Source: an uncultured Candidatus Peribacteria bacterium
GTDB lineage: Bacteria; Patescibacteriota; Gracilibacteria; Absconditabacterales; Absconditicoccaceae
Length of the DNA: 64,000 bases
NCBI GenBank assembly: GCA_964560855.1
Contig: CAZLLU010000001.1
Span: 17,051 to 81,050 of the forward strand
Direction: 5' to 3'
Of the stretch, positions 22,256 through 44,054 are shown piece after piece (the stretch's first letter is position 1; every line of letters starts with the position of its first letter). The notes below the pieces were generated by a model. That model worked only from the letters and a program-made list of their open reading frames with translations, was not told where the DNA came from and did not search any database. The position numbers were made by a program, and so were the translations under genes.

Positions 22256-22282
22256 AAAAACGGCCATAGTAGCCGTTTTTTG
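22256..22282 (+). terminator. Rho-independent terminator
   Basis: AAAAAACGGCCATAGTAGCCGTTTTTT. Confidence 0.75.
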
Positions 22283-22303
22283 TTATTTTTCATAAATATA
22301 TAT

Positions 22304-22930: not shown

Positions 22931-23048
22931 GATAAATGATTAAACTATAAAAAACTTGGGAGCAGGTAATAAGGAAGCGGGGAAATCCTGTAATCTATGA
23001 TTTGCGACCTATGACCTGTGACAGTTTACTTTGTATACGTAATCTAGA

Positions 23049-23531: not shown

Positions 23532-23575
23532 AAAGTAAACAGGGACAAGAAATAAGGAACAAGGACCATGTCCCT

Positions 23576-24028: not shown

Positions 24029-24169
24029 TTTGTCGTCTCAAATCGCTTCAGATTGCTTCAGGTTGTTTCAGATTGCCGTGCATTAGCTTTATTGTCGCAA
24101 TCTGTGACGATATGTGGCGTCCGCTTAGGCGGACTTGAAACAGTGTTTTTATATGATTAGGCTATACAT

Positions 24170-25432: not shown

Positions 25433-25620
25433 AATGTCCGAAGGACGTAATTTGCCTTCGGCGTAATTCGCTGCGCGTATATTTGTTCCCGTTGGTCGGG
25501 AAATGTATTCGCATATATCGACAAGTTTTTTTGTATATGTCTGGAAAATGCGGAAATAATAAATATACATCCGTTAGGATAAATTACCATACATTACGCC
25601 CGCAGGGCTAATTACATTTA
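25433..25620. repeat. REP-like cluster, hairpins punctuated by GTAATT
   Basis: GTCCGAAGGAC GTAATT TGCCTTCGGC GTAATT CGCTGCGC GTATAT ... TCCCGTTGGTCGGGA ... GCCCGCAGGGC. Confidence 0.6.
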
Positions 25621-25636
25621 TTCCATAAATATTTTC

Positions 25637-27016
25637 ATGAAAAAAAAATTTCTACGACGGTATTATAAATTGCTCGGAAAATTGGCCCATGGATATATAG
25701 AGAAACACAATCCTCAGATTATCGGAATCAATGGAAGTGTAGGGAAGACCTCCTGTCGTATGATCATCTATCAGACGTTGCAGAGATTTTTGTCGAACAA
25801 GCGTATCTATACATCGCCCAAAAATTTCAATGGCGAACTCGGGATGTCGCTCTCTATTTTCCAGGTAGAGAAACGGGAACCGAATATCCTATATTTCATC
25901 ACAACTCTTTTCAAACTTATCCGAAAAAGATTTTTCTGACCGAAACCTTATGATATCCTGCTTTTGGAATATGGCATCGATCGTCCCGGGGAGATGGACT
26001 TTCTTGTAAGTATAGCTAAGCCACATATCGGTGTATTTACCGCAATTGACTCCGTACATTCAGAACAGTTCGGCAATCCAGCAGAGATAGCCAAGGAAGA
26101 AGTGAAAATGCTCAAGAACACACTGGAAATCTGATTTTTGAATGCAAATGATCCTTATGCAATACAGCTCAAAGATCACCTTTTCATAGATTATCTGACG
26201 TATCAGACGGAAGGCAACGATATTACAGCCGACATTTATTTTAAGGATGAACTCTTCTATCTCGCTGATTTCAAAGGGGGAATCTGAGTACAATTTTCTA
26301 CCCGAATCAAAGAAAAAAAATACGCTGTGAGTACAAATGTACTGAGTAAGGCAAATTATGGTTATATCAGTGTGGCTTTGGCAATTGCTGGAATATTGGA
26401 TTATAAATATGCTAAGCTCGAAGCGAGAGCAGAGGATCCAATTTTAAGAAATGGATCACGTGAGCTTTTGGAAATGAAGTATCAATTGCAGCCAGGAAGA
26501 CTTTCTATCTTTAAAGGTGTCGAAAATAGCGTCATTATAGATTCTACGTACAACGCTTCTCCATTGAGCGTGAAGAAGATCATAAATACTGCACATAATA
26601 TTAAGGCACAATTATTCCCTCAGAGGAAAATTATCCTTGTACTATGAGACATGAGAGAATTGGGCGATCTTACAGAACGCGAACATAGGATGATTGCAGG
26701 GTATGTGTCTCAGGTGGCTGACAAAGTCATTCTCGTAGGGCAGTATATGACCGACTATTTAGCGGATGAATTAGAGAAGGTAGGATTCAATCCTAAGCTG
26801 ATAGAGAAATTCTATGACGCGAATGTCGCAGGTAAACATATCCAGAAACTCCTGAAAGAACCGGGTGACGAATATCTCGTTGTCTGCAAGTGAAGCCAGA
26901 ATACCATCTTCCTCGAGGAAGCGGTAAAGCAATTTCTTCAGAATCCCGAAGACCAAAAAGACCTGACCAGACAGTCAGATCGATGGTTATCTACGAAGAA
27001 GAAATATTTCAAATAA
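25637..27016 (+). CDS. murF: UDP-N-acetylmuramoyl-tripeptide--D-alanyl-D-alanine ligase
   Basis: GINGSVGKTS P-loop, LLLEYGIDRPGEMDFL, IIDSTYNASPLS, VL-G-DMRELG. Pieces 25637-25939, 26327-26647 and 26651-26893 share a frame. TAA stop at 27014-27016. Confidence 0.9.
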
Positions 27017-27020
27017 TTTG

Positions 27021-27105
27021 GAATTTACAATTTGAAATTTTTAATTTAAAAACTCGATACCTCAAAGAGGTTTTAAAATTGTAAATTTAAAATTCAAAAT
27101 TTAGT
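27021..27105. terminator. Convergent terminator: long AT-rich inverted word arms around hairpin ACCTCAAAGAGGT
   Basis: AATTTACAATTTGAAATTTTTAATTTAAAA .. ACCTC-AAA-GAGGT (27059-27071) .. TTTTAAAATTGTAAATTTAAAATTCAAAATTT. Lies between murF (+) and the 7TM gene (-). Confidence 0.6.
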
Positions 27106-27110
27106 TTGGT

Positions 27111-28406
27111 TTATTCCTCTTCCTCCTCAGCCCCTGAGGAGTTTTTTAATAATGGCATGAAGCGGAAATATTCGAGCAATTGGAGCCCGGTGAATCTTCC
27201 TACGAGGATATTCAGTAAAAAAATCAGAATGATAAATTCAGGGAAAGCCAAGAGCAGATGTTTTAATCCTGTTCGATAGAGAAGTCCGTAGACAGAGAAG
27301 GAGACGAGCAAAAATTCTATAAAAGCAACCCATCGACCTTTACTGAAGAGCTTGAATCCTTCATTGAAGACTTTATCGCTCACGAGGGTGATGAATAGTA
27401 TCGGGAATATGATATAACTGTTGGTGAAGATGCTGATATCTATCCGATTTAGTTTGAGTATGCTGTTGAACCCAAAGACCAGGAGTAAGATGAAAAAATA
27501 GAGGATGATGAGTAGTGCACTTTTTGCGTTGTGTAGGAGATACATTTTTTTGGTAAACAAACGTATCAATAATTTTGTAATGAATCAGACAATCAGAAGT
27601 CATAGGCTCAATGGGACTCCGAGGATTGACATCGAGACAGCAAAAAGCAGGGGACTATAGATACCAAATACGGAGAATCCTACAAGTTGTCTGAACATAC
27701 TTATTATCAGCGCACCTAGTGAAAGGACAAGAAACATCGCAATCAGTTCGACAGGGAATCCATGCGCGATGAGACGATCTACGATATATGATATAGGCAG
27801 ATATTTTGGTGTCTCTTGGAATGAGAGGGAAAATGGGGTGATGTATTCTTCATTATTCGTGATTTTTCCCATCGAAAGTGAAGAAAGGAAGTTCAGAAAC
27901 TTATCTTGGGAAAGCGTATATACCTTACTGATCGCTAATGGTTGTACATATTTTGCTAACGTCCTTTTGAGGAAAAATTTGTTGCTGTTGGTGATAAGAT
28001 AGATGGTTTTGTCTTGGAGATTGAGATTGTTCGTGTCTTGTATCTTATCAAATAATTGTAGAAGGACGTCGAATTTCGATGTATTGATGATCAATGTATT
28101 GGTCTCTTGAATTTCATTAATATTGCTCATGATCTTGTTAGTGATCTCATCTTCGGAAAAGTTTTTTTCAGAAATGAAAATCTCCTGGAGTAGCATTCTC
28201 TTTTTATCCAAGTTCTGCTGGAAACCGAGATCGAATGCGTCTCATTGCTCTCCTATATAGATGATCGTGTTTGTGTATCTAATTCATTTTGTCGGAGCAG
28301 CACAATGCGTTTGTCCCTCGCAATCGACCGGCGTGAATTGAGCAGAAACAATAGCAGTAGCGCCAAGAAGTAGGATGAAAGTTATGATAGAGAGAAATTT
28401 TTTCAT
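27111..28406 (-). CDS. Membrane protein: signal peptide, ~200-aa extracytoplasmic domain, polytopic 7TM_transglut-like C-terminal domain; ends SSGAEEEEE
   Basis: ORFs 27600-28211 and 27111-27569 are joined by the TGA at 27600-27602. ATG at 28404-28406. MKKFLSIITFILLLGATAIVSA signal peptide. VGFSVFGIYSPLLFA and GRFTGLQLLEYFRF. TAA stop at 27111-27113. Confidence 0.7.
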
Positions 28407-28468: not shown

Positions 28469-30337
28469 TTATTTTTTCTGTTTATTGAGGATCCTTACTG
28501 CTCATAGATTTTTTATGTCTTTTTTCTTAATAGTGATGATCTCTCATCCAGTATATTTTCCGTTGTGTTGTAGTATTACTTTGAGTGTATCAAGATTTGA
28601 ATCAATCACTTTTGCTTTCTGTATTCCATGAGCTGTAGGTATGGATACGATATTCCCTTTTTTCAATAAGTCTCTTGATTTGAGCTTATTCCATTCTCAT
28701 TCTTGGACATATTTTCCTCTATACTTTTTGTAATGGACTATATCAAAAAGACTCACCAAAGCCGCTTTTTCTTCGTTGATATATTCTTGCGTTCCTCTGA
28801 ATCTAAAATCTCATTTTAACAAGTTTTTTTCCTTGTTTGTTATTCCATCCTCATTGATTTTTTCACTGAATGCTCATGCTCATTCCTTAAGTTTTATATG
28901 AAATACTTTATCTACAAGTTTGTTCTGATTGATTCTGCTGGTATCAGTGCCAAGTTTTTGGAAAAGGCTATCTAAGGTAAAAATATCTTCAAAGGAAACT
29001 TTCGCAGACATAGCTTTTCTATAAAAAGCCGCCCTTTCTTCATCATTCGGTAAGGATTTCAAATATTCTACAAGTTTTTTCTCTCCTCTGAAATAGATGA
29101 CATCTTTTCTATTTGATCATTTTTCATCTCGAGGATAATAACATTTCACTCTTTGGGTGAGATTGAATGCTGTTTTGAAAAGTGAAGCTTCTTTTTCTTT
29201 TGTTATTTCTCATGTGACGTTCAATTTTTTCCATGCTTTGAGAAGATGATAAGTGTCTTCAAAATTATAATTTTCACCCATGAAAACCGCTATGAATGTG
29301 TTGCTAGGAATGAGCGGATATTCATCCAATGAATATTTCAATAATCATTCGTTGAGCTTGGTTATCCCTTCTTCTATATCTTCATATCATGGTCAAGCTA
29401 TGATCATTCCATTTTTTTCTTGGTTGTCTGATCTGACCATATGTCCACCATCTTCATGGCCAATAGTTGTGAATATTTTGTTGAAAAGATCTTCGTCTTT
29501 GTCTGGATATTCACGGATTTTACTAGAAAAAGGAGTAGAATATCATGTCTTTCATTTTTCTTGTTTCTGAGGTCGTTGGCTGATAACTGGATAAAAATGC
29601 TGTTTGATATGTTCAGTCCCTTTCATGATATCTGACATGGGAAGATTTCCTCTTGCAGGAAGTTTTTTCTTATCTTGAGCGACTTTATTAGTGATGCTTT
29701 CTTTGAAGGTGTCGAGGAAAGAGGAAAATAATCTATTCTCTGTTTCGGTCAGTTTGTCTTTGTTTTTTTTGTATGATGCATTGCACATGGATAGGATAAT
29801 TTCTTTCTCATCAGGGCAATCGCTTATTTTCGGACCATACACTGCTGTTTGGAGCGTATCAATCTCTTTGAGATATAATTGTTTATTGTTTTCATATTCG
29901 GTTCATAATCATATTTTATGCAGCTTTTCTGGATTTTTTTTGAGTTCAAACGTGGATCAGGAAAAAATGATGTCATATCCGGACTTTTCTGCTTCAAACC
30001 ATGCAGATCTTTTGGCAATTTCCGCTTTTTTACTACTTTCATCAATCCTTTTGATAAGGAAATGTTTGAGATCACTATCTAAGTCGTTATCATTTTCTAT
30101 ATTGTAGCGTAAATCATGAATATCTTGCAGGACTGATTCGATAAGAGAAATCCTTTCTGCTATATCATATGAAGAGAGAGATTCTTTGTTCGGAAAAAAT
30201 TTACTGGAGAGATAATTCATATATCAATCCAATCATTCAGATTTTTGCTTGATATAGCTCAAACTCCCTCATAACATCCCAGTGAGCTTTTCGCTGGATT
30301 GGTGTACAAGTTCAGCATAATTGCGATACTTTTCCAT
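28469..30337 (-). CDS. DUF1704/MATCAP-like predicted metallopeptidase, 622 aa (HExxxH)
   Basis: ORFs 29957-30220, 29552-29842 and 28880-29062 share a frame, and every gap codon was read. IGHEDGGHMVRS ... GITKLNE-G-LLKYSLDE. An extra C-terminal region of about 100 aa follows. TAA stop at 28469-28471. The start at ATG 30335-30337 is tentative. Confidence 0.6.
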
Positions 30338-30369: not shown

Positions 30370-30933
30370 TTATATCTTTTTCTTTGTGATTTGTCAAAAA
30401 TCTTCTTTTAGTAATCAATAGAGAAATGCATCATAATATGCATCTTGTTTCTTTGAAAAATATAAGTGCCTAGCTAGTCATTCACGGACAAATCAGAGCC
30501 TTTCTGCTAATGCAATCGATGATGTGTTGTCTGTCCTTATTCGTGCTTGTATTCTTTGGATACCTGTGTCGTGGAATAGATAAGATAATATAGCATGTAA
30601 CGCTTCAGTCATTAGTCATTTTCATTCATATGTTTTTCCTAATCGATATCATACATTTGCCTTTCAATGCTTTTTGCTGATTTTTTTTAATACGACAGAT
30701 CAGATGACTTCTTCTGTCTCTGATAGGGCAAGCATCCATCTTATCATTTTACCCTTGCGTTCTTTTGATTCGCATGATAAGGTATATGCTTCTATTTCCT
30801 TTGGATCGCTTGGTAAATTGATAAATGTCTTTATCTTTTTTTCTTTTAGAAGGGCACTTAGCGTAGGAATATCATATTGTATCATAGGTCTGATAATCAA
30901 ACGATTAGTCGATAATGTTATCCCCATAAGCAT
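30370..30933 (-). CDS. GNAT-family N-acetyltransferase (RimJ/RimL-like)
   Basis: LSTNRLIIRPM...ANV-G-YRLGKTYE-G-K-G-LMTEA...IQARIRTDNTSSIALAERL-G-FVRE-G. TAA stop at 30370-30372. Confidence 0.75.
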
Positions 30934-30969: not shown

Positions 30970-32070
30970 TTAAATATAAAGTATGATTTCAGCAAGACGC
31001 TGTATCGGATCTTTGGTCCTAAATGAGTGTATAATTTTCTCATATCCTATTTGGTAAAGCAATTCTTTGGGATAAAGATATCTGTGCTGAGAGAAGGGAA
31101 GGAATTTAAAAAATCTGTAATAAAGATTATTGATCTCCTGATCGTCTGTATATCACAATGTTGCACATATTTTTTTCACGAGAAGATGGTTTTTGTATGG
31201 AATGTTAGTGCCTTTATCGAGGAGCTCTTGATACATATAGCTATATTTTGGAAAATAGATGTGTTGTAATGATATGCTGTCCAAAGAGCATGCTTCTATG
31301 TTTTCAAAAAGATTGTAGGCAAAAAAATTAGCTGCTCATTCATTATACGTATGAAGAGTGAAATGTTCTTTCTGTATTGAAAAAATCTTTCTAACCATGA
31401 CATGCAAGAGGTGCGTGCACTCATGATAAAATGTTGTTTTTTTCTTTGAATTCATATACATAACTATCTTGTTGTTTTTGATTTCTACAAAAGAGCTATT
31501 TTTTTTCTGGTACATGACGGTGAATGTGTAGTTCTGTAATTCTTTTTGGAGCTTGTTTTTTTCTTTTCTATGTCAGGTCTTTACTAGGATATGGAAAATA
31601 AAGGAGAAAAACTTATTGAACATATCTTCAGGCGAAGTGAATGTTTGTGTATTGTATCACATATATGTATCCTTGTTCTTCATATATTTTGAAAGTGATG
31701 TCTTTTTGATGTCGCGATGATACTGTATTTTGTAGAGTGAATTGAAAATCGAGATAATCTTTTTGTTGGTAGCTTCATTGGAGGGGATCTTTTTTTTAAA
31801 GAGTTTCCCTTCAACCTCGTAATCATATGCCAGTATTAATAATTCTTTTATCAATGGTGAGTCGAAGAGATGATCGCTTGATGATGCAATGATACGTTTA
31901 GCCTCTGATTTGGAAAGCTGTTGCATCAACAGAAAAATATCTTTTGCTTTTTTGGGTGTGAGGTCGGTTTCTGTTTTTATCAGATTAAAATAATATCAAA
32001 AGAAAAAAAGATAATTTTTTAAAATCATATTGTCTTGGAGTGGATAATAGGTGTAATTCAATCCAATCAT
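30970..32070 (-). CDS. Predicted zinc metallopeptidase (HExxH; Peptidase_MA-like), 366 aa
   Basis: FYHECTHLLHV followed 26 aa later by YNE-G-AANFFAYNLFE. The start ATG overlaps the upstream stop (TAATG at 32068-32072). TAA stop at 30970-30972. Confidence 0.55.
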
Positions 32071-33377
32071 TACTCTGTCTTGATGATAGTAAAGTATTTA
32101 CCTTCAATAAATTCAAAATCTTTTTTGAATTGATGAATATCATTATTGGCCAATTCTATGGATCACACCTTGCCATATCAATCACGAGTCAATCATATTT
32201 GTGCTCATAGAATTTTAATTCATGGGTTCATCCTGTGAAAAGAGGGGAGCTGTTTGATGCTATCTATTATATCCTGATGGTATCCATTAAAGATTGATTT
32301 TTGCTTTGGGTATAAAGCAAACAGGGCTACATTCTTTTTGAGAGGGAATATGCTTTCTCTAAGGTCTTGAAATGGAAATCTCAAAAGATTGATATCGTAT
32401 CCTATCTGATACATATCTAGTCTGAATCATCATATTCTTCAATTTATCTCTATGGTTTTCATATCTCATTTTGTATTTATTTTGAATTCATGATGGACAA
32501 AGGTGTTCCTGATCTTTCATCCTAGAACAGTTTTTTTTACAAAATCATAAAGTTTGTTATGATCGACTTCTTCTTCTACCTCTTGGGATATTGTCCTTGA
32601 TATGTTGCAAAAATCGTCGATATTGTGATCTATTCATAATTTGACGAAAACGGGTTTTGATAAGGTAATATTTTGATCTTCATCAACATAATAATCCACG
32701 GTATACATTTTTCCATCAATAAACTCTTCGACTAAGATGGATTGGTCAGTTAGTTTTTTGTTTGCTAACATTATAAATGCATTGGTTGTAATGCTAAGCG
32801 CATTTTTATATTCTTCGAAATTGTGTATTTTGCACACTCAACTGCTTTGTACTCCTCCTGTGGGTTTTACGATACATGGAAATGGAGGGAGATCTTTTTC
32901 TGTGATCGTTTTGGCCTCTTCTATATCGAATTTTCTATATTGTACGATAGTCTCTGGATATTGTTTTCATATGATTTCTCTTTGTAGATATTTGTTCAAA
33001 AAGATGCCAGGATTATCAGTGACTTTTTGTCATAATATAGCCCTGATTTTGTTGGTAAAAAGTATTTCTTGTTCTTCAAACGTATTTATGAAAATCTTTC
33101 ATGATAATGATTGAAGATGTGATATAATCTCATTTCCATCGGTGAAGCCGATTATTTTGACGCCTATATCGTTTATCCCATCAATGATGTCTTGCGTAAG
33201 CTCTACTAAGGGGTCTTCTTCATAAAAATAGAGGATGGATACACCATTTGCTTGTAAATCATTGAAGCTCTTTTTGTAATAATCAAACTTATTGAGCTTA
33301 AAAAGACTTTTCTTTGAATAAAATCCTATGAGATGCATTGTTTTTTTGCTAATGAAGTAAAAAAATTCACTAATCAT
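32070..33377 (-). CDS. ATP-grasp ligase (L-amino-acid-ligase / CPSase-like subtype), 435 aa
   Basis: ORFs 33099-33377, 32634-32837 and 32220-32414 share a frame. PCIVKPT-GG-VQSS-G-VCKI, VEEFIDGKMYTVDYY, HHEFKINTK-G-D, IEIN-G-RI-GG-F. An alternative start exists at 33338. TAA stop at 32070-32072. Confidence 0.7.
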
Positions 33378-34282
33378 TTACATATTTCTGATAGTTTTTG
33401 CTTGTCGGTCTGATAATACCGCGTTCCAGGAGATGCATTTATTTCCAATAGATATCGTTTTTTTTCTGGATTACAATAAGAGAAATCCATAGACATGATA
33501 TCGTTTCCGGAAAGATTCATGGAACGATATATTTTTCTCGCTAAAGACAATAGCTCTTTAGGTAATGAATCTCACGGTAAAGGGACTTGTTGTCATCAGG
33601 ATCAGATATTGCTTCTAAAGTCTCATGTTTTAGGCGTCCTTAATGTCGTCTCTATGATTTTTTTTCAAGCAAACATGAGTCTGATGTCATGGATTCATGT
33701 ACAGATTCATGGATATCATTTACTGAAATCTTTGAACTCTTGGACAATAAAAAGCTCTTCCAATCAAATATATTCGTCTTTTTTTCAGATAATATCCTGG
33801 GGAGTAGTGAGCACTATTCACTTTCCTCAATTGGCCCTGATAGGTTTGAGAAGTATCTTGTCTGAAAATTGCTCTTGAAGAGATGCTTTTGCAAAAAAAG
33901 TAGAAAGTAGACAAGATAATGGTTGATGCTTATAGGCAAATTTATAGATTTCAAATTTATCATTGCTCATTGTTGATATTTTTTGGGAGGGGACCGTGGA
34001 AAAATCTTGTAATACATCGTATTTGTAGGTTACAAATGCTCATCTCCTTGACCGAATGATGTCAGGAATAAATTCTTTTTTTATGGTTTTTGCTTTGCCA
34101 TGTGCATCGAAGATAGCATACTCGTCAAATGATTTGCGTTTAGAAGAAAAGTGATTTATACTTACTCTTACTAATTCTATGCCATGTGCAAAAAAAAATT
34201 CTTGCATAAAAAATTTCGCTCAATATTCGTCCTTACCTTTGTATGTTCATGTATAAGAATTTTCTATCGCTATTTTTAGCAT
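33326..34282 (-). CDS. ATP-grasp ligase (RimK / glutathione-synthetase-like subtype), 318 aa
   Basis: This gene is invisible in the standard-code track because it has more than 15 in-frame TGA. LLKPIRAN-GG-K-G-IVL, IVQEFKD, IHDIRLMFA-G-KKI, T-G-DFRSNI-G-S-GG-QQ, LLEINASPG. TAG stop at 33326-33328. Confidence 0.7.
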
Positions 34283-34295
34283 ATATAAGATTGTA

Positions 34296-36755
34296 TTATA
34301 CAATAAAACATACATCATTTATTTTTATTTTGCCTTTATATATTCTGTCTGTAGATTCTCAATCTTTCATTCGTTTTTTTACCATGTCGTATCATTCCAA
34401 GTAGATCTTATCTTTTATAAAAACAGTTCCCTGGTGCTTGATAGATGTGTGCTCTATTCCTTTTTTGATTCTCAAGACTCATTTGAAGAGTCTTTCTATG
34501 TCTTTATCCGGATTAAGAAAGCTGAGTAATTCGAATGTTTTCCTGAAGTCACGATTCTCAGACTCTTTGACGAGATAATATTTCTTATAAATACTATCCT
34601 TCTCATATTCTTCAGGTAATATCTTACTTGCATTGTAGATAGCTAATCCCTCTTCATCCTTGAGATAATTCGCTGTCCCTGATTTTAAAATATTCCATCC
34701 AGATTTTAGTCAGTTCAGATGCCTAATGAGATGAGTATCTATTTCGTGGGCCAAAACAGAAAGTAATTCTTTTTCTCTGAATATTCCGTGTTTTGAAATA
34801 CTGATTTTGATTTGTTTTCCCATAATTACTGATATCCTTGAGAGATTTGTATAACTAAAAACAATATCCACTCCGTAGATTTTTTTCTCTGCAAGATATT
34901 TTTCGATGGTTTTTTCTATTTCTGAAAGCGTTAGTGGCTCTCCCAAAAGCTTTTGATTATCTTGATTGAGACTAAATACTTTTTCTTTGGATATTTTCAA
35001 TAGTTCTTCATCGAAATCACCAAATAGCTTTTTGTTGTATAACGCGATGTTTTTAAAGTCTTGTTTGCTGTAAGCGAGGATGAGACATCTTCTCTGTTCC
35101 AGTTCTTCCAGTTTCTCTACGAAAATTTTAGCAAAAGGGCTTTTGAATTTGGCTAATTGTTTTTGAAGCTTATCTATCGCTATTTTAGTCTCCAATAATT
35201 TTTCTTCCTTTGGTCGTTTGTATTGGAAAACAGGATTATATTTCCCCTGAAGAGTGATAAATTTATCCAGTTCACTGAAATAGTTGGTGGGTCTTAATCT
35301 AGCGGAAAGATTCAATCTTTTACTGATTTTCTCTATCTTTTTGTCGATGGCATGGAGCTCATTGCTTTCAAGCTTATCCAGATATTTTGGCTGTATGATG
35401 TCCACTATTTCATATGTCTTATGGATAGGTTTAACGAGATAATTGCTCGCAGTCTTGTTTCCAAGTATGATCTTGTTTTCAGGAAGATTTTCAAGGATGG
35501 AAAACTTGGATTTTTTGAGCACAATCTCATTTTCATAGAGATCCAGATATCGTTCTCTTTTGTTCTCTTTGATTTTGTCGAATAATTTTTGGGACATATA
35601 ATTCCCCAATCTATTAAGATCGACTTCGACGACAATATCTATTTTTTCTTCTTCTTCCTTTTTTTTGATGATGAAATTCGCGTATTGAGAGAGATAGAGT
35701 ATTTTAGAACCTAAAAGGTCATATTTTTCTGGGCTAAAAAGACTTTTCGCTATTTCTACGCCCTTTTCGGGATCGGAGACTTTGAGATCTTCTATCTTAT
35801 TTAGGATATTTTTTAGTCTTGTGTCAGTGACTTTCTGTACCTCTAAACCGGCTCTTGCATTGATTTCCAATAATTTCGGACCCTCGTTGGTGATGACCCG
35901 GTCGAGCGCGAGATATCCGAGATTGACGAAATATTGTACTTTCGATGAAAGGAAAAGTATGTCGTTCCGATAAGGAATCTTTTTGTTTTGAAAATGTGCG
36001 AATCTTTTTGGAAATCTGGTTTTGTAGATTTTTTTCTTCCGGAGTAGGGAAGTGATCTTGCCGCTTCAAACTTCGATTCCGAATCCGAGTCATCATTGTG
36101 CGAGATTCGCTTTGCCTCACGATTCTTTTGTCGGTACTCTGATCATAGTAGCGACGGGGACGAGATTGAAAACAATAATTCTGATGTCCGCCAGTCAGAA
36201 TTCGCAGAAATCCTTGAAAAGCTCTCCAGCAATGAGTTTCTCTTCGATGATAATCTTATCGCTACCGAGGGTCATGGAGTATTTTCCATCGAGGATATCA
36301 AGGAGGCGCCTTCTGAATTCCTGGTCAGTGAGGATTTTATCTCATATCTGATAGGTTCAAGAATGCTGGTGATCTTCAAACCTTTGAAAAAAAGCCTTTT
36401 TGATTATGTTTCATCGCTGTCTGAGTTTGTTGGATGCTACTGTTTCCCTTTTTGGCATATCTCCTTCTGGCTGTTCTTCGGGAATATATTTGACGATATA
36501 GACTCCTTGTCCTTTGCTTCATTGATTCGGTTTCACGACGAAATTCTTTTTGGGGAGATAGGAAAAATCAAACTCATAGAGTTCTTTACGACTAGAGATG
36601 ATGCCGTAAGTCTTGGCGAACGGGATACCTCTTTCTATAAGAAAATCTTTCGTCTGGAGTTTATCGTTAGCTAGACGAATGCCTTTCTTATGATTGAACT
36701 TCTTGATATAGAGGAGGTTCCTAGCATTGTTGCCGAGGATCCCGGAATCGAACAT
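34296..36755 (-). CDS. Fusion protein: alpha-L-glutamate-ligase-like ATP-grasp (N) + DUF1704/MATCAP-like QEGLA-motif peptidase domain (C), 819 aa
   Basis: ORFs 36519-36755 and 34710-35870 share a frame. I read every codon from 35871 to 36518 and from 34296 to 34709. The N-terminal part carries GILGNNARNLLYI, VVKPNQ-G-SKGQGV, S-GG-KANLAQ-GG-LGFGIEV and LLEINARAGLEVQ. The C-terminal part carries LAHEIDTHLIRH and KDEEGLAIYNA. Confidence 0.75.
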
Positions 36756-36919: not shown

Positions 36920-37753
36920 ATGAATACACTATTAAAATTGCTCTATGTGAGCATTGTTACATTCGCCCTCATGTTTATGGGGTGTGAGAAAGATCCCGTG
37001 ATTCCATCGTTCTGTGAATTCGGAGATCAGGCTGGCCCAGAATTAGTGGTCGGTGAGCAATATGTGGACGCTCATAGGGGTGGATTATCACACCCCGATG
37101 CTTGCGATGCAATTGCGAACAAAATAACAAAAGGTATACAAAAAAAATTGTATAGCGAAATTATTCCTGAGCTTGACATGTTTGTAGCATCGGCTACAGA
37201 AATGTACAGAAAGAAAGATGAATATAAAGACATGTCGAATTGGTGGAAAGTGTCCAGAACCTATCTTATTAAAAAATTAAAGGGGAAAGATAAAGACATA
37301 GTAGACGACGATGTCGTTCGTGTATTACCTCTTTATGCAGAGATGTTGGACAAACGCATCATCCCGTATGTCATGGATAATATTTGTTATGGTGGAGGTG
37401 TGCGTGATGTATGGACCGATAACATGATAAAAAACACATTTGTTGACACCATTCCCTACGATCTTACTCATCAACCCTGGGTAATCACTCCTTGGTGGGA
37501 GTGCTATTATTATTTCTATTACTATGCTGTTGATCCCGGCAATTATGCCGAGGCCAAGAGTATGGGAATGAATGTTCCTTCTGTCGATTCGCTTATGGTC
37601 ATCTTCCCCATAGAAGAGATAAAAAATCAGACCGACTTAAGAGAATACCGTAAGGAGTCAATTAAAAAATATGACTTCATGCAGGCAGATTGGAAACCGG
37701 TTCCGACATCCAAAGTACAGATGTACAAGGATGAAGAAGAGCTAAAAAATTAA
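36920..37753 (+). CDS. Lipoprotein, hypothetical (277 aa); GC-richer than its neighbours
   Basis: Uninterrupted ORF. Lipobox FALMFMGC. Trp/Tyr-rich (PWWECYYYFYYYAVDPG). TAA stop followed by a hairpin. Confidence 0.7.
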   Translation: MNTLLKLLYVSIVTFALMFMGCEKDPVIPSFCEFGDQAGPELVVGEQYVDAHRGGLSHPDACDAIANKITKGIQKKLYSEIIPELDMFVASATEMYRKKDEYKDMSNWWKVSRTYLIKKLKGKDKDIVDDDVVRVLPLYAEMLDKRIIPYVMDNICYGGGVRDVWTDNMIKNTFVDTIPYDLTHQPWVITPWWECYYYFYYYAVDPGNYAEAKSMGMNVPSVDSLMVIFPIEEIKNQTDLREYRKESIKKYDFMQADWKPVPTSKVQMYKDEEELKN

Positions 37754-37889: not shown

Positions 37890-39449
37890 ATGAAATTATT
37901 CGTATACAACACACTCACACGTCAGAAAGAGGAATTCGTTCCGTTGATGGAAGATCCAAATTATAAAGGTCCAAAAAAGGATTTTGTCGGAATGTATTCG
38001 TGCGGACCTACCGTCTATCGGGATCCAAGTATCGGAAATTATAGAGCAACCTTCACCGCTGATTTGATCAAAAACACACTGAAATTACTCGGATATAACG
38101 TAAAAGCAGTGATGAATATTACCGATGTCGGACATTTGACTTCAGACGCTGATGAAGGAGAAGATAAGCTTGAAAAGTGAGCGAAACGTGAGGGAATCTC
38201 TGCACGGGAAGTTGCTCAGAAATATGAAAAAATTTTTAAAGAAGGAATGAAAGCACTCAATATTGATGAGTTCGATGTGATGCCCAGAGCGACAGAACAT
38301 ATTCAAGAACAAATTGATTTGGTGAAATCATTAGAGGAAAAAGGATACACTTATACTGTCGAAGGAGACGGAATCTATATGGATACGAGCAAAGTAGAAA
38401 AATATGGAGAACTCATGTGACCAAATTACAAAAAGCGTTTAGCTGATTTGAATGCATGAGAAAGGGTAGAGATGGGAGGAAAAAAACATCCGACTGATTT
38501 CGCTTTACGGAAATTTTCTCCGACAGGGGAGCAGAGACAGATGGAGCGAGACTCGCCATGGGGAAAGGGATTTCCTGGTCGGCATATCGAATGTAGTGCG
38601 ATGTCTTCAAAATATCTTGGCAATCAATTTGATATCCATCATGGAGGAGCGGATCATATCACCATCCATCATCCTAACGAAATAGCTCAGTCTGAATGTG
38701 GATTTGATGTTCATCCTCGAGTGAAATATCGAATCCATAACGAATTCCTTCAGGTCGATGGCGGCAAGATGAGTAAATCATTAGGGAATGTTTACAATTT
38801 GAACGATATTCAAACTAAAGGATTTTCACCATTGGATTTGAGATATTTCTACTTCATGGCACAATATGGAAACTTCCAGAATTTTACTTGGGATCAATTG
38901 GATGCTGCAAAAAATGCAAGGAATAATTTAAAGAAAAAAATAAGTTTTCATAAGATTAATCAAGAATGTGTTAATAAAATTAAAACATATTTTGAAAATA
39001 AGGAATACGGAAAATTAAAAGAAAAAAATGATTCAAATAAAAAAGTTTGGTTTGTGATTGATCAAGAAAATGAAAAAATGATTGGAGATTACTTCCAATC
39101 TTACTGAATATTCCAAATATTTTTTCGTAATATTACAGAAGCTTTATTAGATAATATAAATACTCCGAAAATTATTGCTTGGCTTTATGAATCGAATTTT
39201 AATGATGATAGTAAAAAATATGTGCTTGCTTTAATTAATTTCTTAGAAGATAATTTCTTGAAACTTTGATTATTTGAAATGGAGCTAATCCCTGAATGTC
39301 CCGCTGAAGTGACTTTACTCGCAGACCAGAGAATCGAAGCGAAGAAAAATAAGGACTATGCATTAGCGGATGAACTCAGGAACAAAATCACTGCGTTATG
39401 ATTTCAAGTAAAAGACAGTAAAGATGGATACGAAATAGGTAAACTTTAG
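37890..39449 (+). CDS. cysS: Cysteine--tRNA ligase
   Basis: [35 protein letters not shown]-terminal [25 protein letters not shown]. Pieces 37878-38180 and 38472-39107 share a frame. TAG stop at 39447-39449. Confidence 0.9.
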
Positions 39450-39878: not shown

Positions 39879-41519
39879 TTATGGTGCTGATGATATTTCA
39901 CCAGTCCAAATTTCTATAGCTCATGAGAGGGGAATGTGTGCGAGGACATACATCCCTTTTTTTGTTGCTTCAGAAAAGTATTGATCAAACAAAAAATTTC
40001 ACAGACTATAGATGATAGGTTTTCCCTGATATCGTTGAATGTCTTGAATGACGTGCGGATGATGTCCTATGATAATATCGGCTCAGCAATCAATAAGTTT
40101 TTTTCCGATATTTTCTTGTAGGATATTGTGCGTAGTTTGATATTCGGTTCCTCGATGAATGCTTACGATATTTTTGTATCATAATGTTTGGTATTTTTTG
40201 AGATCATCACAATAATCTTCTATATCACCAGAGAATCTGTTGTATAGGTTATATGCATGAAGCGCGAGAGGTATGCCACGGATAGTTTTTGTGAGGACTG
40301 TATTTTTGTTGATTCATTTGAAGTGTGTCCATCCAGCATAGGAGATATTTTGCTCTTGTAAGGTATGGATGGTTTGCATATATCACTCTTGTCAGTCGTC
40401 TCGAGCATGATTGTTGGCAATGGTTACCGTATCAAATCACAGTGATTGAAGCGTTCAAAGGATCGTTCATGAAGAACAGAAAGAAATACCATTAGTATGA
40501 TGCGTACAATTTTCATCGACTCGTGGTGTTTCTAGATTGAAACCAAGGAGATCCAAACCAAATCATTTCCTGTGAATATTGGTTTTGGGATTCAATACTA
40601 TATTTCATTGCTGATACCGATCTTGGAAATGCTGCTGTATTTTTTCTGGCGTATCCAATATCGATTTGACTCATCTATCAAAGATAAGATCACCAAAAAA
40701 TCAAAGCACTATCCCATTATCTTTATTGCATCCTCCCGTATAGAGAATGAATGCTCTAGAAGTATTTTCTTTCCCTAAGTCTTTCCCTACAATAGTGCTA
40801 CTAGAATCTCTTTTGAGAAGCCATGGATATTGTCTTTTGGTTTGTGCTCGAGTATTTACCAGATATAAACAAGTTGGACAATCGACTTCTATTGTAGTAT
40901 ATTCTTTTTGTGTCCGAGCATTCACCAACGTATAATAACTTTTGAGATCGTGGACGTATGCTCGCTGCTCTGATGTATAATGGGAAAAATCTACAGAAGC
41001 TATCACCAGAAGGTTATTGTTTTTTTCTAATTGATGTATTCTTTTAGCGAGTATATCCAGATTGCTGAAATCTCTTGGTGAGAGTTTGATGAACGATATA
41101 CTTGCTTGAGGGAAATATTTTTTCAGAAAGGGAAAATGAGCTCATCGTCCATGTTCTTTTATTCGTTTGTCAGGATATTTTTCTTGATCTGAAATATAGA
41201 TTGCATGAATGGGTAAACAAACCCCTTGGAAACAAATTGTCGTATCTATGATGTTTTCATAAAGATTATTCGTTCATTTATTAAAATGATCAGGACTGAT
41301 AATTACTATTTGTAATGACTTTCCCGAAAGATTATAGGTATCCAAGATATGTTTGTAGGCACTATCTATGGTAGGAGGTTGTATCGCGAAATGGGGGAGT
41401 ATAGCGAAATAGGTCTGATAATTTTTTTCTGGTATCGTTCTCGTATAGAAAAAACATACACTTATGCATCCACAGATGAATAGTCATGAGAAAAAATATT
41501 TCCGATAATGTTTGTGCAT
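39879..41519 (-). CDS. Fusion: N-terminal TM anchor + Memo-like (AmmeMemoRadiSam system protein B-like) domain + CapA/PgsA-family metallophosphatase-like domain, 546 aa
   Basis: VIISPDHFNK, IKEHGRGAHFPF and IASVDFSHYTSEQ in the Memo-like part. TVTIANNHARDD-G-QE-G, IHRGTEYQ, CGADIIIGHHPHVIQ and IIYSL-G-NFLFDQ in the CapA-like part. The frame was read codon by codon from 41519 to the TAA at 39879-39881. Confidence 0.7.
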
Positions 41520-41531
41520 ACGTGATAGGTG

Positions 41532-44054
41532 TTATTTCTGAAGTATCTTTTGGAGTGGTAAGGTGATAATCTCATCTTGTTTTGCAGCATCAAGTCACGC
41601 TCTTCGCTCTTCATCGGTATACCTTCATTTTTCTCCAGTAATTGCATCATCACTACCATAAAATTCAAATGTACTATATACAGGTCATATTACTGCTCTT
41701 GCACCATTAGCATCTTTGATATTAGCGATCAAAAGATACGGTCTTCCATTGGCAATATAGAGAGGACCATTTTTTTCTGAAGTGAATATATCTGCAATTA
41801 GTGCAGAGATGAAATCGTTATCACCGCCATCTATGACTTTTTGAGGATACAAGATACTCATGAGCTCATCATAATAGAGTCTCAATGTTTCATAGTCATC
41901 ATCACTGATAATTTGGTTGCTGCTTTCTTTGATAGCCATGTTTTTTACAAAAAGAAGGAAATCGTTAAAAGGTTCAAATGAAGCATTATCTCCAAAAAAT
42001 TGCTTAGTTTGTTCAGTAAGCGTGAGTAGCTCATCGACAAGATCAATATTAGGTTCTACATATCCTTTGGGTACAGGAAGTGCAGGAGGATTGATAATTA
42101 CACTACATTCATCTTCTCATCACATTCCCCGCTCGGCATACGCTTGTTTGACATATAGGAGGGTATCGTGTTTTAGTTCAGTATAATTTCACTGGAATGT
42201 ATTTAATTCTTTATATTTCCAAAGAGGGTCTTGCATGAAATAAGGGAGGTTATTACCAGAAAGCGCAAAAAGCCATCATAAGTCATTGAGCCATTGATGA
42301 TAGGTAGAACGAGAGAAATCGTGATTGAATATACCGCTTTGTGCTTCTTGTTTTGCTTTGCTATATCAATCGATTTGCGTTGATGTTACTTTATATTTGT
42401 TTTGTGCTTTTTGCATCCATATATCGACAAGATCTTGTATAAATCCGCTATTCACTAATCCATCCGGTACGATCAATGATGTCTGTACGTTAGGTTTGTA
42501 GGTAAATTCTTTCTCTGCTGTACCAGCTGTCATACGATCAAATATCCAACTATCGATAGTGAATTTTTCTCCGAAAAATACGAATCCCGCTGTTTCATCT
42601 TTTGCTTCTTGTTCAGTCACTGAGAGTATTTCTGGTGTTTGGTAATGGGTCGAAACGATCCTTTGTGGTCTGAGTTTTTTGAGCTCTGATTGGGTATTTT
42701 CTGAAACACTGTCAATGATATTCATATCTGATTTCCATCACGCTGTTTGTATGAAATCTTGGATATCCTTGATATTTACATCATCATCTTCACCTATGAG
42801 TTTTTGTATAGCATCATAGAGTTGAGAAAAACTTGTTAATTCTTCATTTTGAATATTATTGATCATAACGAGTGATGCTTTAGTTTGTTCGCTATCACGG
42901 AAGTAGAGTTTTTCTCTCATAAACCATTTCATCCCCATAAAATAGGTTTTGAGAAGACTACTTTTGGTGTAATGAGATCTTGGAGTAAATTGTGTATAAT
43001 CTTGTTGAATATCTATTGCTTCAGAGTTTGTTCCTGCAAGAGTAATAAGAAGAGGATCTTTTTCTCTTGATTGATCTGCTGCAAATATATTTTGTAAGGT
43101 TGTTTTTACTGCTTCTTGATAAAAGGTTGGAATCTTTGATTCAATGTTAGCAAGTTTTTGTAAACTAAGTGCTTTGATTTCTTCATTAGTTAAATCTGTT
43201 TCATCTGATGTGCTATTTTGCATTTTTTGATCTAGAGCAACCATGACCTCATCTTGAGGAACTAATAAGGTATATGGGATAGCTCGATATGCAGTAGCAT
43301 ATGCATAGTAAGGAGCTAATGCTGTATCTTTGTTTTGTTGATAGAGATTTGAAAACTTGGAAAACATAGATTCACTCAAATCTACCATAATAGTTCTTGC
43401 TGTGCTTTCTTCATAAAATCTTAAGGCGTTAGAGAATATCTTATGATAGAAATGTAATAGCATATCAGTGGTTACAAAAATGGTATTGTAGGAGAATCTT
43501 TGATAGTCTTGAGGCAATCCACCTATTTTTTGATAATAGAGTCCTCGTTCCTCTTGCATGAGCATTGGATTGTCAGCAGTCCGCATATTTCGATTTTCCC
43601 CAGGGTTGAAGATCAATCGTCCATGGTCATTCAGAAATGATTTTTGTGTCTCAGTAAGTGAAAAAGAAAGTCATCATCAGTTATATGCTCCAGTGATTTC
43701 GATATTACCTTTGTTAAGGTCGTTTCGAGATACCTTTTTATTGAATCATTGGCTGGTAGTGAGGGTTATGGTATCACATTGTTTGAGTGTTTCTACGCGT
43801 GATGGATCTATATCTTTTTCTCCTATGATTTTTTTTCGTGGCTGCTGAAAACCATTTTGCATACTTTCTAGATTTGTAATTTCTTTCATATCTGGCTTTT
43901 CCATTTTCCGTGTGAATGGATATTGTGATATTTTCCCTGACAACAATGCTGATCATGTGCTTAGTGATGTATTTGATATCGGTGTGCTCACCTGAGTACA
44001 TCATCCTAAAAAACACAAACATCATACCAATAAGAGCAATCATGTCTTTTTCAT
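41532..44054 (-). CDS. DUF3160-family lipoprotein, 840 aa
   Basis: MKKT-G-LLLLV-G-CLCFL-GG-C lipobox. FTPRSHYTKSSLLKTYFMGMKWFMR. ORFs 43746-43946, 42738-43616, 42366-42725 and 41685-41939 share a frame. TAA stop at 41532-41534, 12 nt before the next gene's start. Confidence 0.75.

What the first reader, a model, noticed from the sequence alone, without database searches (positions are those of the whole stretch)
34296..36755. Single polypeptide fusing an amino-acid ligase (ATP-grasp) to a DUF1704/MATCAP-like carboxypeptidase-type domain
Seen in sequence: there is one continuous table-25 frame of 819 codons, and I read every codon between the two listed ORFs.
- Residues ~1-300 carry ATP-grasp signatures: VVKPNQ-G-SKGQGV, RIIVFNLVPVATMIRVPT, S-GG-KANLAQ-GG-LGFG, LLEINARAGLE.
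- Residues ~690-740 carry LAHEIDTHLIRH (HExxxH spacing) and KDEEGLAIYNA, a near match to the QEGLA motif that names the TIGR family for DUF1704.

Inference: this is a 'writer' and an 'eraser' of C-terminal or alpha-linked residues on one chain. That arrangement suggests length control or proofreading of a tail or polymer, or processive add-and-trim chemistry. In the systems I know (TTL/MATCAP, RimK), these activities sit on separate proteins.
Basis: partly seen in the sequence, partly recalled or inferred. Interest (0 to 1): 0.75.

Follow-up and report, generated by a model that had tools for sequence, protein, structure and literature searches.

The report
Fused ligase-peptidase beside Glu-tailed membrane protein
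A candidate-phyla bacterium encodes one 819-residue enzyme that joins a glutamate-ligase-like domain to a tail-trimming peptidase domain related to human MATCAP, and its constant gene neighbour is a seven-helix membrane protein that always ends in a run of glutamates, which suggests a bacterial add-and-trim system for a protein tail.

Summary
On the minus strand, 36755..34296 is one 819-codon frame with 13 in-frame UGA codons that read as Gly (code 25). Residues 12-322 are an RloC/RimK-type ATP-grasp. Residues 471-816 are a MATCAP/DUF1704 metallopeptidase. All catalytic residues of both domains are invariant in 56 homologues.

The fusion is not an artefact. It occurs in more than 1000 database proteins across Absconditabacteria, Gracilibacteria and Peregrinibacteria, including lineages that use the standard code. 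It is therefore already catalogued, but only under automatic names, and I found no paper on it.

The new finding is the partner. A 7TM_transglut (RloB-like) membrane protein lies in the same operon in 46 loci, and every one ends in 2-6 glutamates. None of 1002 other proteins in these loci ends in three or more. The tail is predicted to be cytoplasmic. Proteobacterial RloB proteins, which pair with an unfused ligase, lack the tail, and K-tailed paralogues lack the fusion.

Best reading, inferred and not assayed: the enzyme extends and trims that tail, as RimK/RimB do on ribosomal protein S6 and TTL(L)/MATCAP do on tubulin. This is a new variant of a known kind. Interest is about 0.62.

The parts
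34296..36755 (-). Gene for the 819-aa bifunctional protein (ATP-grasp, beta-rich middle domain, MATCAP/DUF1704), with 13 in-frame UGA=Gly codons
35790..36722 (-). ATP-grasp ligase domain, residues 12-322 (RloC/TIGR02291-like). Includes K75 (36531-36533), the Gly-rich loop NQGSKGQG (36504-36527), E171/E172, D285, E297-I-N299 (35859-35867) and R301. There is a disordered, variable insert at residues 94-128.
   Evidence: Pfam and NCBIfam. Invariant residues. Foldseek match to RimK 5zct, E 3e-7. 31.5% identity to Legionella RloC-like protein.
35421..35702 (-). Unassigned beta-rich middle domain, residues about 352-445. It is conserved (for example L355, Q357, K442) but matches no profile.
   Evidence: AF2 secondary structure; invariant columns; no Pfam hit
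34308..35345 (-). MATCAP/DUF1704-type metallopeptidase domain, residues 471-816. HEIDTH is at 34731-34748 and EEGLA at 34641-34655.
   Evidence: HExxxH and EEG align with human MATCAP HEIGTH and EEGLA.
33326..34318 (-). Accessory RimK-like ATP-grasp ligase. The ORF is 330 aa, but the real start is probably the Met at 34282, 13 nt after the fusion's stop. Present in 15 related loci.
   Evidence: Pfam PF08443, E 3e-11; phmmer
32070..33377 (-). Accessory ATP-grasp_4 ligase, 435 aa (found in 5 loci)
   Evidence: Pfam PF13535, E 2e-21
30970..32070 (-). 366-aa protein of unknown family with an HECTH (HExxH) motif. It travels with the ATP-grasp_4 gene in L012 and L035.
   Evidence: No Pfam hit; no credible relation to the fusion; phmmer
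30370..30933 (-). GNAT acetyltransferase (Acetyltransf_3, RimJ/RimL-like), 187 aa
   Evidence: Pfam, E 4e-29
28469..30337 (-). Second, stand-alone and divergent MATCAP-like peptidase, 622 aa (HEDGGH, EEG). Found in 15 loci.
   Evidence: Weak Pfam MATCAP hit, E 0.07. hhalign aligns the motifs. phmmer 1e-30 to the L004 564-aa protein, which Pfam does call MATCAP.
27111..28406 (-). RloB-like 7TM_transglut membrane protein, 431 aa: signal peptide, about 190-aa alpha/beta ectodomain, 7 TM helices and a cytoplasmic tail
   Evidence: Pfam PF14402, E 2e-11; topology; AF2 model
27114..27128 (-). Five Glu codons (GAG GAG GAA GAG GAA) immediately before the TAA stop. This is the conserved oligo-Glu C-terminus and the proposed substrate tail.

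Best explanation
The 819-aa protein is a cytoplasmic bifunctional tail editor. Its N-terminal RloC/RimK-type ATP-grasp domain uses ATP to add amino acids, most likely alpha-linked glutamate, to a carboxy-terminus. Its C-terminal MATCAP/DUF1704 zinc-peptidase domain removes C-terminal residues one at a time. The substrate I propose is the genetically encoded oligo-Glu C-terminus of the 7TM_transglut (RloB-like) membrane protein in the same operon. That tail sits in the cytoplasm and would serve as the primer.

With writer and eraser on one chain, the length or end-state of the tail would depend on the balance of the two activities (for example ATP or glutamate supply, or a signal from the variable ectodomain) rather than on enzyme amounts. 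In this window, the extra ligases (two ATP-grasps), the second MATCAP-like peptidase and the GNAT would add or remove further marks.

Shown: single chain; domain identities; intact catalytic residues; clade-wide conservation; operon linkage; tail conservation and specificity; cytoplasmic topology.

Inferred: the tail is the substrate; the residue added is Glu; the peptidase acts as a carboxypeptidase on that tail; the physiological output.
For: (1) Single chain with both sites intact. K75, E171/E172, D285, E297, N299, R301, H670, E671, H675, E701 and E702 are invariant in 56 homologues at 46-98% identity. HExxxH and E-x-N were found in all but one of the 40 loci checked with a simple pattern, and the strict [DE]EG[LIVM]A pattern in 35 of 40.

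(2) The nearest structural relatives all act on C-terminal Glu of proteins. Human MATCAP: E 2e-11, TM 0.67. RimK: E 3e-7, including the RimK-RpsF complex 5zk6. Then LysX/ArgX. MATCAP-family enzymes TMCP1 and TMCP2 remove C-terminal Glu and shorten polyE chains (PMC10499314). RimK adds Glu to the C-terminus of S6, and RimB removes it (PMC12239564 introduction).

(3) Partner linkage. A 7TM_transglut gene is on the same strand in 46 loci. In many Gracilibacteria it starts 4-20 nt after the fusion's stop. It is present in 29 of 40 loci with at least 6 kb on both sides.

(4) The tail. All 46 partners end in E2-E6. In the greedy gene set used as a control, which included 43 of these partners, 41 of the 43 end in EEE or longer and 2 in EE, against 0 of 1002 other proteins ending in EEE or longer. 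Among 139 complete 50%-identity cluster representatives, 100 end in EE or longer.

(5) The tail tracks the fusion. Two distant E-tailed members, in standard-code genomes, sit directly beside 787-aa and 814-aa ATPgrasp_ST+MATCAP fusions. Two K-tailed members have no fusion nearby. Legionella and Aeromonas RloB, paired with an unfused RloC and a retropepsin, end in ...AKARS and ...PGKDK.

(6) Same compartment. The partner has a signal peptide, an ectodomain and 7 TM helices, with K/R counts of 13 inside and 4 outside, so the tail is cytoplasmic. The fusion has no signal peptide. The E-run is predicted to be disordered.

(7) The Pseudomonas rloABC operon links the homologous ligase and 7TM protein genetically to a polyE-cleaving protease (PMC12239564).
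Against: No biochemical data exist for any member.

Eleven of 40 well-flanked loci, including oral SR1 lineages, and Vampirococcus L002, have the fusion with intact motifs but no 7TM gene within the DNA held (6-10 kb). Either the partner is encoded elsewhere in those genomes or the enzyme has another substrate.

Pseudomonas RloA is periplasmic and cuts runs of at least 8 Glu. This suggests that in Proteobacteria the polyE product reaches the periplasm, which a cytoplasmic tail would not.

Pfam's name for the ligase domain ('sugar-transfer associated') and the neighbouring Mur-ligase, PGA_cap and YdjC genes hint at a surface polymer.

The amino acid added is unknown.

Confidence: 0.55

Rival explanations
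1. Free poly-alpha-glutamate (or another small peptide) is made and turned over. The ATP-grasp polymerises glutamate as RimK does in vitro, the peptidase domain recycles or limits the polymer, and the 7TM protein exports or anchors it. The Glu tail would be only a primer, a docking site or a pseudo-substrate.
For: RimK also makes free poly-alpha-L-glutamate, and RloA, a periplasmic enzyme, cleaves runs of at least 8 Glu. Loss of rloB or rloC suppresses the rloA-null defects, which fits a toxic product that needs RloB (PMC12239564). Some lineages have the fusion without an adjacent 7TM gene.
Against: The E-run at the exact C-terminus is strictly conserved only where the peptidase-fused ligase is present. 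That is expected for an acceptor end, not for a transporter. MATCAP-family enzymes are exopeptidases on protein tails. The 7TM fold matches no known transporter.
Confidence: 0.2
2. The enzyme works in cell-envelope or surface-polymer chemistry. The ligase would add amino acids to a sugar-linked or peptidoglycan-type precursor, the peptidase would trim stem peptides, and the 7TM protein would be the membrane scaffold or flippase.
For: Pfam names PF14397 'sugar-transfer associated ATP-grasp'. Mur_ligase genes sit in or near the cluster in L001, L003 and L089, and YdjC in L005. PGA_cap and DUF3160 genes lie a few kb upstream in the window.
Against: These neighbours vary from locus to locus. The minimal conserved unit in Gracilibacteria and Peregrinibacteria is only the fusion plus the 7TM gene. 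The best sequence and fold matches are protein-tail ligases (TIGR02291, RimK, LysX), not Mur, Ddl or sugar-linked systems.
Confidence: 0.12
3. The Glu tail works as a LysW-like carrier. The ligase would attach a metabolite to the terminal Glu, accessory enzymes would modify it while it stays tethered, and the peptidase would release the product, as LysX and LysK do.
For: LysX and ArgX are among the top fold matches. The accessory genes (GNAT, extra ligases, nearby aminotransferases in L001 and L089) could in principle form a pathway.
Against: The core operon has no kinase, reductase or aminotransferase set. The accessory genes are not conserved. A membrane-embedded 7TM carrier has no precedent. 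A LysW-type C-terminal motif and zinc finger are absent (established knowledge of the LysW pathway; no test made here).
Confidence: 0.06
4. The long frame is an artefact: two adjacent genes merged by a sequencing error, by misreading of UGA, or as a decaying pseudogene.
For: Under the standard code the frame has 13 stops (one search shows the wrong strand; the right one).
Against: Code 25 is supported across the window and by codon substitution. Full-length fusions occur in 215 GTDB loci and in standard-code genomes, where the ORF is uninterrupted (787 and 814 aa). Catalytic residues are invariant.
Confidence: 0.01

Closest known systems
Pseudomonas RloABC operon (RloA retropepsin, RloB inactive-transglutaminase 7TM protein, RloC ATP-grasp; mBio 2025, PMC12239564)
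   Same: The ligase half is an RloC/TIGR02291 homologue: E 1e-51, and 31.5% identity to a Legionella operon member. The partner carries the same 7TM_transglut module. Ligase, peptidase and 7TM protein are encoded together, and polyE is the chemistry implicated.
   Different: Here the peptidase is a cytoplasmic MATCAP/DUF1704 metalloenzyme fused to the ligase, not a secreted aspartic retropepsin. The 7TM protein has no transglutaminase-like ectodomain and carries an oligo-Glu C-terminus, which the proteobacterial RloB proteins examined lack. The ligase scores below the TIGR02291 cut-off.
RimK / RimB acting on ribosomal protein S6 (RpsF)
   Same: An ATP-grasp adds alpha-linked Glu to a protein that already ends in Glu, and an operon-encoded peptidase removes them. 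RimK is the best structural match for the N-terminal half.
   Different: RimK and RimB are separate proteins. RimB is a retropepsin. The substrate is a ribosomal protein, not a membrane protein. The RimK family model is not met (42 bits against a cut-off of 143).
Eukaryotic tubulin tail cycle: TTL/TTLL ligases with MATCAP (TMCP1/TMCP2), VASH and CCP peptidases
   Same: The C-terminal half is a true MATCAP-family member by Pfam, PDB sequence search (E 5e-11) and fold (TM 0.67), with HExxxH and EEG conserved. The logic is the same: an acidic ...EE(E) tail is edited by an ATP-grasp writer and a metallocarboxypeptidase eraser. TMCPs deglutamylate.
   Different: The ligase is not of the TTL family: no PF03133 hit appeared at E<=1. 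Writer and eraser are on one chain. The substrate candidate is a 7TM membrane protein. The organism is a bacterium.
Proteobacterial operon of N-formylglutamate amidohydrolase, QEGLA (TIGR02421/DUF1704) protein and 'glutathione synthetase'-type ATP-grasp
   Same: A DUF1704 peptidase is encoded next to an ATP-grasp ligase. This shows that the ligase-peptidase partnership is old and recurrent.
   Different: The genes are separate. The ligase belongs to a different ATP-grasp family (GSH-synthetase-like). There is no 7TM partner. Identity to the peptidase half is only about 23%.
Bifunctional synthetase/hydrolase enzymes, such as glutathionylspermidine synthetase/amidase and cyanophycin synthetase with its primer-generating hydrolytic site (my own knowledge; not tested here)
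   Same: Opposing amide-forming and amide-cleaving activities sit on one polypeptide.
   Different: The hydrolase folds are unrelated (CHAP amidase, cyanophycinase-like). The substrates are small molecules or polymers, not a protein tail.

Membership tests
ATP-grasp superfamily, PF14397 ATPgrasp_ST | Profile score above Pfam's gathering threshold | tested here: met
   140.9 bits against 31.4, residues 12-322
ATP-grasp superfamily | Catalytic set present: ATP-binding Lys, Gly-rich loop, acidic Mg ligands and the E-x-N motif | tested here: met
   K75, GSKGQG, E171/E172, D285, E297-I-N299 and R301 are invariant in 56 sequences
TIGR02291 alpha-L-glutamate ligase-like protein (RloC type) | Score above NCBIfam's curated equivalog cut-off | tested here: not met
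   175.8 bits against 314.2. It is the best-scoring family, but the match is split by the 94-128 insert.
TIGR02291 / Rlo system | Encoded with a 7TM_transglut (RloB-type) membrane protein | tested here: met
   46 loci, same strand, often 4-20 nt apart; also L089 and L093
TIGR02291 / Rlo system | Encoded with a retropepsin-like (PF05618) RloA protease | tested here: not met
   No such family appears in the Pfam lists for the window cluster or for 8 related loci. A MATCAP-like domain takes its place.
RimK family (TIGR00768) | Score above the curated cut-off | tested here: not met
   42.2 bits against 143.4. The fold match to RimK has TM 0.53.
RimK family | Adds alpha-linked L-Glu to a protein C-terminus | not testable with these tools
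   Needs an enzyme assay
MATCAP / DUF1704 (PF08014) | Profile score above Pfam's gathering threshold | tested here: met
   58.2 bits against 27, residues 498-816
MATCAP / DUF1704 | HExxxH metal site plus a downstream EEG(LA) glutamate | tested here: met
   H670, E671, H675, E701 and E702 are invariant. They align to human MATCAP HEIGTH and EEGLA.
MATCAP / DUF1704 | Fold like the solved MATCAP structure | tested here: met
   7z5g: E 1.8e-11, TM (target) 0.67, 348 columns. The pLDDT of this half is mostly above 85.
TIGR02421 QEGLA protein | Score above the curated equivalog cut-off; QEGLA motif | tested here: not met
   75.4 bits against 338.65. The motif here is EEGLA, not QEGLA.
MATCAP / DUF1704 | Carboxypeptidase activity on acidic tails | not testable with these tools
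   Shown for the human and Tetrahymena enzymes only (PMC10499314)
TTL/TTLL tubulin ligases (PF03133) | Profile match | tested here: not met
   No TTL hit among Pfam matches at E<=1
7TM_transglut (PF14402), partner protein | Profile score above threshold; seven TM helices | tested here: met
   44.2 bits against 25. Seven hydrophobic segments follow the signal peptide.
RloB-type 'inactive transglutaminase fused to 7TM' | Transglutaminase-like ectodomain | tested here: not met
   No transglutaminase profile hit. The modelled ectodomain is a small alpha/beta fold with only weak receiver/PBP-like matches.

The most novel reading that the evidence does not exclude
Bacteria of the Gracilibacteria/Absconditabacteria/Peregrinibacteria radiation run a true 'tail code'. 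A receptor-like 7TM protein carries a genetically encoded oligo-Glu C-terminus. One bifunctional enzyme reversibly lengthens and shortens it, and in some genomes extra ligases, peptidases and an acetyltransferase decorate it further. This would make the bacterial DUF1704 peptidases functional forerunners of eukaryotic MATCAP: tail-editing enzymes that were coupled to ATP-grasp ligases and ...EEE substrates before tubulin existed. It would also suggest what the Pseudomonas RloC ligase acts on.
Probability: 0.35. Interest if true: 0.85.

Novelty: new variant of a known kind. Interest (0 to 1): 0.62.

Why it matters
Reversible polyglutamylation of protein tails is central to the eukaryotic tubulin code. 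In bacteria it is known essentially only for ribosomal protein S6.

This locus puts a MATCAP-family eraser and a RimK/RloC-family writer on one chain. Comparative data also point to a specific, testable substrate: a membrane protein whose C-terminus is always a short Glu run.

If confirmed, it would be the first membrane-protein tail-editing system in bacteria. It would give an evolutionary context for MATCAP. It would also offer a simple two-gene model for the clinically relevant but mechanistically opaque Pseudomonas rlo operon.

Because the unit is conserved in reduced CPR genomes, it is likely to matter for their physiology.

Tried and rejected
(1) The + strand reading of the given coordinates is meaningless. 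The gene is on the minus strand.

(2) UGA=Trp (code 4) is rejected. UGA columns pair with Gly, not Trp. Many database entries nonetheless show W at those positions (consensus).

I used P0001, which is 98% identical, as a proxy for the model.

(4) The idea that the 366-aa ORF (30970-32070) is a third MATCAP-like peptidase is rejected. hhalign gave only a spurious 55-column match.

(5) The idea that the Glu tail is a general property of the RloB/7TM_transglut family is rejected. Legionella and Aeromonas RloB lack it, and a K/R-tailed subgroup exists.

(6) A word-indexed search with the 7TM profile stayed inside the clade. The exhaustive HMM search was needed.

(7) A more sensitive HMM found no extra 7TM genes in the loci that lack one.

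(8) The fold search of the 7TM model gave no significant PDB match.

(9) Literature. No held paper combines DUF1704 with ATP-grasp, or Absconditabacteria with ATP-grasp. The key comparative paper (Iyer et al. 2009, PMC3268129) is not held, so I cannot exclude that it mentions this architecture.

(10) Model coordinates are not exposed, so I could not measure the distance or orientation between the two active sites.
Full report
OBSERVATION. The coordinates are right, but the gene is on the minus strand: ATG at 36755, TAA at 34296-34298, 819 sense codons. Under the standard code the frame contains 13 TGA codons and no TAA or TAG.

UGA is a sense codon throughout the window. Counting only TAA and TAG as stops raises the residues in ORFs of at least 150 aa from 7,601 to 27,196. 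In an alignment of 70 homologous genes, the 13 UGA columns hold Gly codons (378 cases) or UGA (245), with practically no Trp. The window comes from an Absconditabacteria (SR1)-type genome; the named close homologues all carry that label.

DOMAINS. Pfam places PF14397 (ATPgrasp_ST) on residues 12-322 (E 6e-41) and PF08014 (MATCAP, formerly DUF1704) on 498-816 (E 9e-16, above threshold). NCBIfam's best models are TIGR02291 'alpha-L-glutamate ligase-like protein' (E 1e-51) and TIGR02421 'QEGLA motif protein' (E 5e-21). Both score below their equivalog cut-offs, so this is a relative of those families, not a member.

The only PDB sequence match is human MATCAP/KIAA0895L (E 5e-11). HEIDTH aligns to HEIGTH and EEGLA to EEGLA.

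I built an AlphaFold2 model of P0001 (98% identical, also 819 aa) with a 56-sequence alignment. Mean pLDDT is 78.5. The model shows three parts:
- an ATP-grasp with a disordered insert at residues 94-128;
- a beta-rich middle domain at about 352-445 that no profile recognises;
- a helical C-terminal domain.

Foldseek against the PDB returns human MATCAP first (E 1.8e-11, TM 0.67), then RimK (E 3e-7, TM 0.53, including the RimK-RpsF complex), then ArgX/LysX. All of these enzymes work on the C-terminal glutamate of a protein.

IS IT ONE PROTEIN, AND IS IT ACTIVE? Of the 120 best database hits, 116 are 800-830 aa and carry both Pfam domains, with identity down to 46%. A scan of one genome per GTDB species found 215 loci. 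The 80 retained cover Absconditabacteria and Gracilibacteria, with full-length matches down to 34% identity. Members from standard-code Peregrinibacteria-type genomes are uninterrupted ORFs of 787 and 814 aa. A search seeded with one of them found 1053 relatives.

In 56 aligned sequences these residues are invariant: K75, E171/E172, D285, E297, N299 and R301 in the ligase, and H670, E671, H675, E701 and E702 in the peptidase. Both halves therefore look catalytically competent, and a sequencing or annotation artefact is excluded.

The architecture is already in the databases, but only under automatic names: 'tyrosine/phenylalanine carboxypeptidase domain-containing protein', 'DUF1704 domain-containing protein', and JGI's 'alpha-L-glutamate ligase-like protein/uncharacterized protein (TIGR02421 family)'. 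I found no paper about it.

NEIGHBOURHOOD. In the window the gene heads a tightly packed minus-strand cluster:
- a RimK-like ATP-grasp (34318..33326);
- an ATP-grasp_4 ligase (33377..32070);
- a 366-aa unknown protein with an HExxH motif (32070..30970);
- a GNAT (30933..30370);
- a 622-aa divergent MATCAP-like protein (30337..28469);
- a 431-aa 7TM_transglut protein (28406..27111).

Across related genomes the middle genes come and go: RimK-like in 15 loci, the second MATCAP-like gene in 15, and Mur ligase, YdjC or GNAT occasionally. The fusion and the 7TM protein are the constant pair. I found 46 loci with a 7TM gene, always on the same strand (45 are distinct, because the RAAC1 genome was fetched twice). 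In most Gracilibacteria the 7TM gene starts only 4-20 nt after the fusion's stop. Among 40 loci with at least 6 kb on each side, 29 contain the partner.

THE TAIL. The window's 7TM protein ends ...RFMPLLKNSSGAEEEEE. All 46 partners end in two to six glutamates. In a control set of 1002 other predicted proteins from the same loci, none ends in three or more Glu and 19 end in EE. Of the 43 partners included in that set, 41 end in EEE or longer.

I then ran an exhaustive profile search of 1.84 billion cluster representatives, which found 1487 family members. Among the top 150, 139 have complete C-termini. Of these, 100 end in EE or longer, 8 end in a single E, and about 30 have basic or other ends.

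The tail tracks the enzyme:
- Two distant E-tailed members lie directly beside fusion genes.
- Two K-tailed members have a different conserved neighbourhood and no fusion.
- Proteobacterial RloB proteins pair with an unfused RloC-type ligase and a retropepsin. They end in ...AKARS (Legionella) and ...PGKDK (Aeromonas).

Hydropathy and the positive-inside rule give a signal peptide, an ectodomain of about 190 aa and seven helices, with 13 K/R in inside loops against 4 outside. This puts the tail in the cytoplasm, where the signal-less enzyme is. In the AF2 model the last five residues are the least confident.

MECHANISM. What is shown:
- one chain carrying two intact active sites of the RloC/RimK and MATCAP types;
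- clade-wide conservation;
- an operon with a 7TM protein whose cytoplasmic C-terminus is a conserved Glu run specific to this pairing.

Established knowledge adds that RimK extends the Glu-ending tail of S6 and RimB trims it (PMC12239564). MATCAP-family enzymes remove C-terminal Glu and shorten polyE (PMC10499314).

My inference, with confidence about 0.55, is that the ligase domain extends the partner's tail, probably with alpha-linked Glu, and the peptidase domain trims it. Putting opposing activities on one polypeptide is a familiar way to make an output depend on signals rather than on enzyme levels (my own knowledge of bifunctional enzymes). The 7TM protein has a lineage-variable ectodomain: a small alpha/beta fold here, PKD in Peregrinibacteria, and an inactive transglutaminase in Proteobacteria. 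That variability looks receptor-like, so tail state may be part of signalling or gating. In the window, three ligases, up to three HExx(x)H proteins and a GNAT suggest more than one mark.

RIVALS. Free polyE synthesis with export through the 7TM protein (0.2) draws support from the Pseudomonas data: RloA is periplasmic and needs at least 8 Glu, and rloB or rloC deletions suppress rloA-null defects. It does not explain why the exact C-terminus is conserved only beside the fused enzyme. Envelope-polymer chemistry (0.12) and a LysW-like carrier role (0.06) rest on variable neighbours and on fold resemblance. An artefact (0.01) is excluded.

The main weakness of the preferred model is the set of lineages that have the fusion but no nearby 7TM gene (11 of 40 loci).

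COMPARISON AND NOVELTY. The system works like RimK/RimB and like the tubulin TTL(L)/MATCAP cycle. It is homologous in part to Pseudomonas RloB/RloC. It is not a member of TIGR02291, TIGR02421, RimK or TTL by their own criteria (no TTL hit). It replaces the Rlo retropepsin with a fused MATCAP-type domain.

In Proteobacteria, DUF1704 peptidases sit next to a different ATP-grasp, in an operon of N-formylglutamate amidohydrolase, QEGLA protein and 'glutathione synthetase'. The ligase-peptidase partnership is therefore old, and the fusion is one clade's version of it.

I rate this a new variant of a known kind. As far as I could check, the fusion is catalogued but unstudied, and the Glu-tailed membrane partner has not been described. 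Iyer et al. 2009 could not be read.

VERDICT. Interest is 0.62.

Noticed in passing
L091 8001-10244; L092 1164-3403: A paralogous subgroup of 7TM_transglut proteins (RFWPLI motif) ends in Lys/Arg-rich tails (for example ...RHLRKK, ...KQKKRK) instead of Glu. It has no fusion gene nearby. It does have a conserved neighbourhood: TGT upstream, and a 145-aa and a roughly 70-aa unknown ORF downstream.
   Followed up: partly
window 24170-25432 (+): An AI-2E_transport-type permease about 1.7 kb beyond the 7TM end of the cluster ends in ...EKTFEE. The same ending is conserved in L003, L011, L014, L020 and L055. It may be a coincidence or a second Glu-ended membrane protein.
   Followed up: no
L095 3451-7195; L096 3448-7210: In Alpha- and Betaproteobacterial replicons the stand-alone QEGLA/DUF1704 protein (about 620 aa) sits in a conserved three-gene unit: N-formylglutamate amidohydrolase, QEGLA protein, and a 'glutathione synthetase'-type ATP-grasp.
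   Followed up: partly
window 37890-39449 (+); L001, L003, L004, L005, L089: A cysteinyl-tRNA synthetase gene is the conserved divergent neighbour of the fusion gene from SR1 to Peregrinibacteria. L001 and L003 carry two tRNA-synt_1e genes within 10 kb.
   Followed up: no
window 39879-41519 (-) and 41532-44054 (-): There is a 546-aa protein combining a Memo-like region with a PGA_cap (CapA, poly-gamma-glutamate capsule) domain. Next to it is an 840-aa DUF3160 lipoprotein. This is another possible link to glutamate-polymer biology near the locus.
   Followed up: no
window 35421-35702 (-): The fusion protein has a conserved beta-rich middle domain (residues about 352-445) between the ligase and the peptidase. 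It matches no Pfam or NCBIfam model.
   Followed up: partly
window 27111-28406 (-); L089 8001-9563; L093 5062-6672; L086 4448-5974: The ectodomain of the 7TM partner differs by lineage: a small alpha/beta fold in SR1, PKD repeats in Peregrinibacteria-type genomes, Y_Y_Y in RAAC1, and an inactive transglutaminase in Proteobacteria. The 7TM core is conserved and has no PDB match.
   Followed up: partly
window 36920-37753 (+): A 277-aa predicted lipoprotein (signal peptide with Cys, aromatic-rich C-terminal half) has no family match. It is transcribed divergently from the fusion gene.
   Followed up: no
database proteins P0001-P0120 (consensus): Many public translations of these genes show Trp where the codon is UGA (for example KPNxWSKG, AQWGIG). 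They were translated with code 4 rather than code 25, which puts Trp in place of Gly, including in the ligase's Gly-rich loop.
   Followed up: partly
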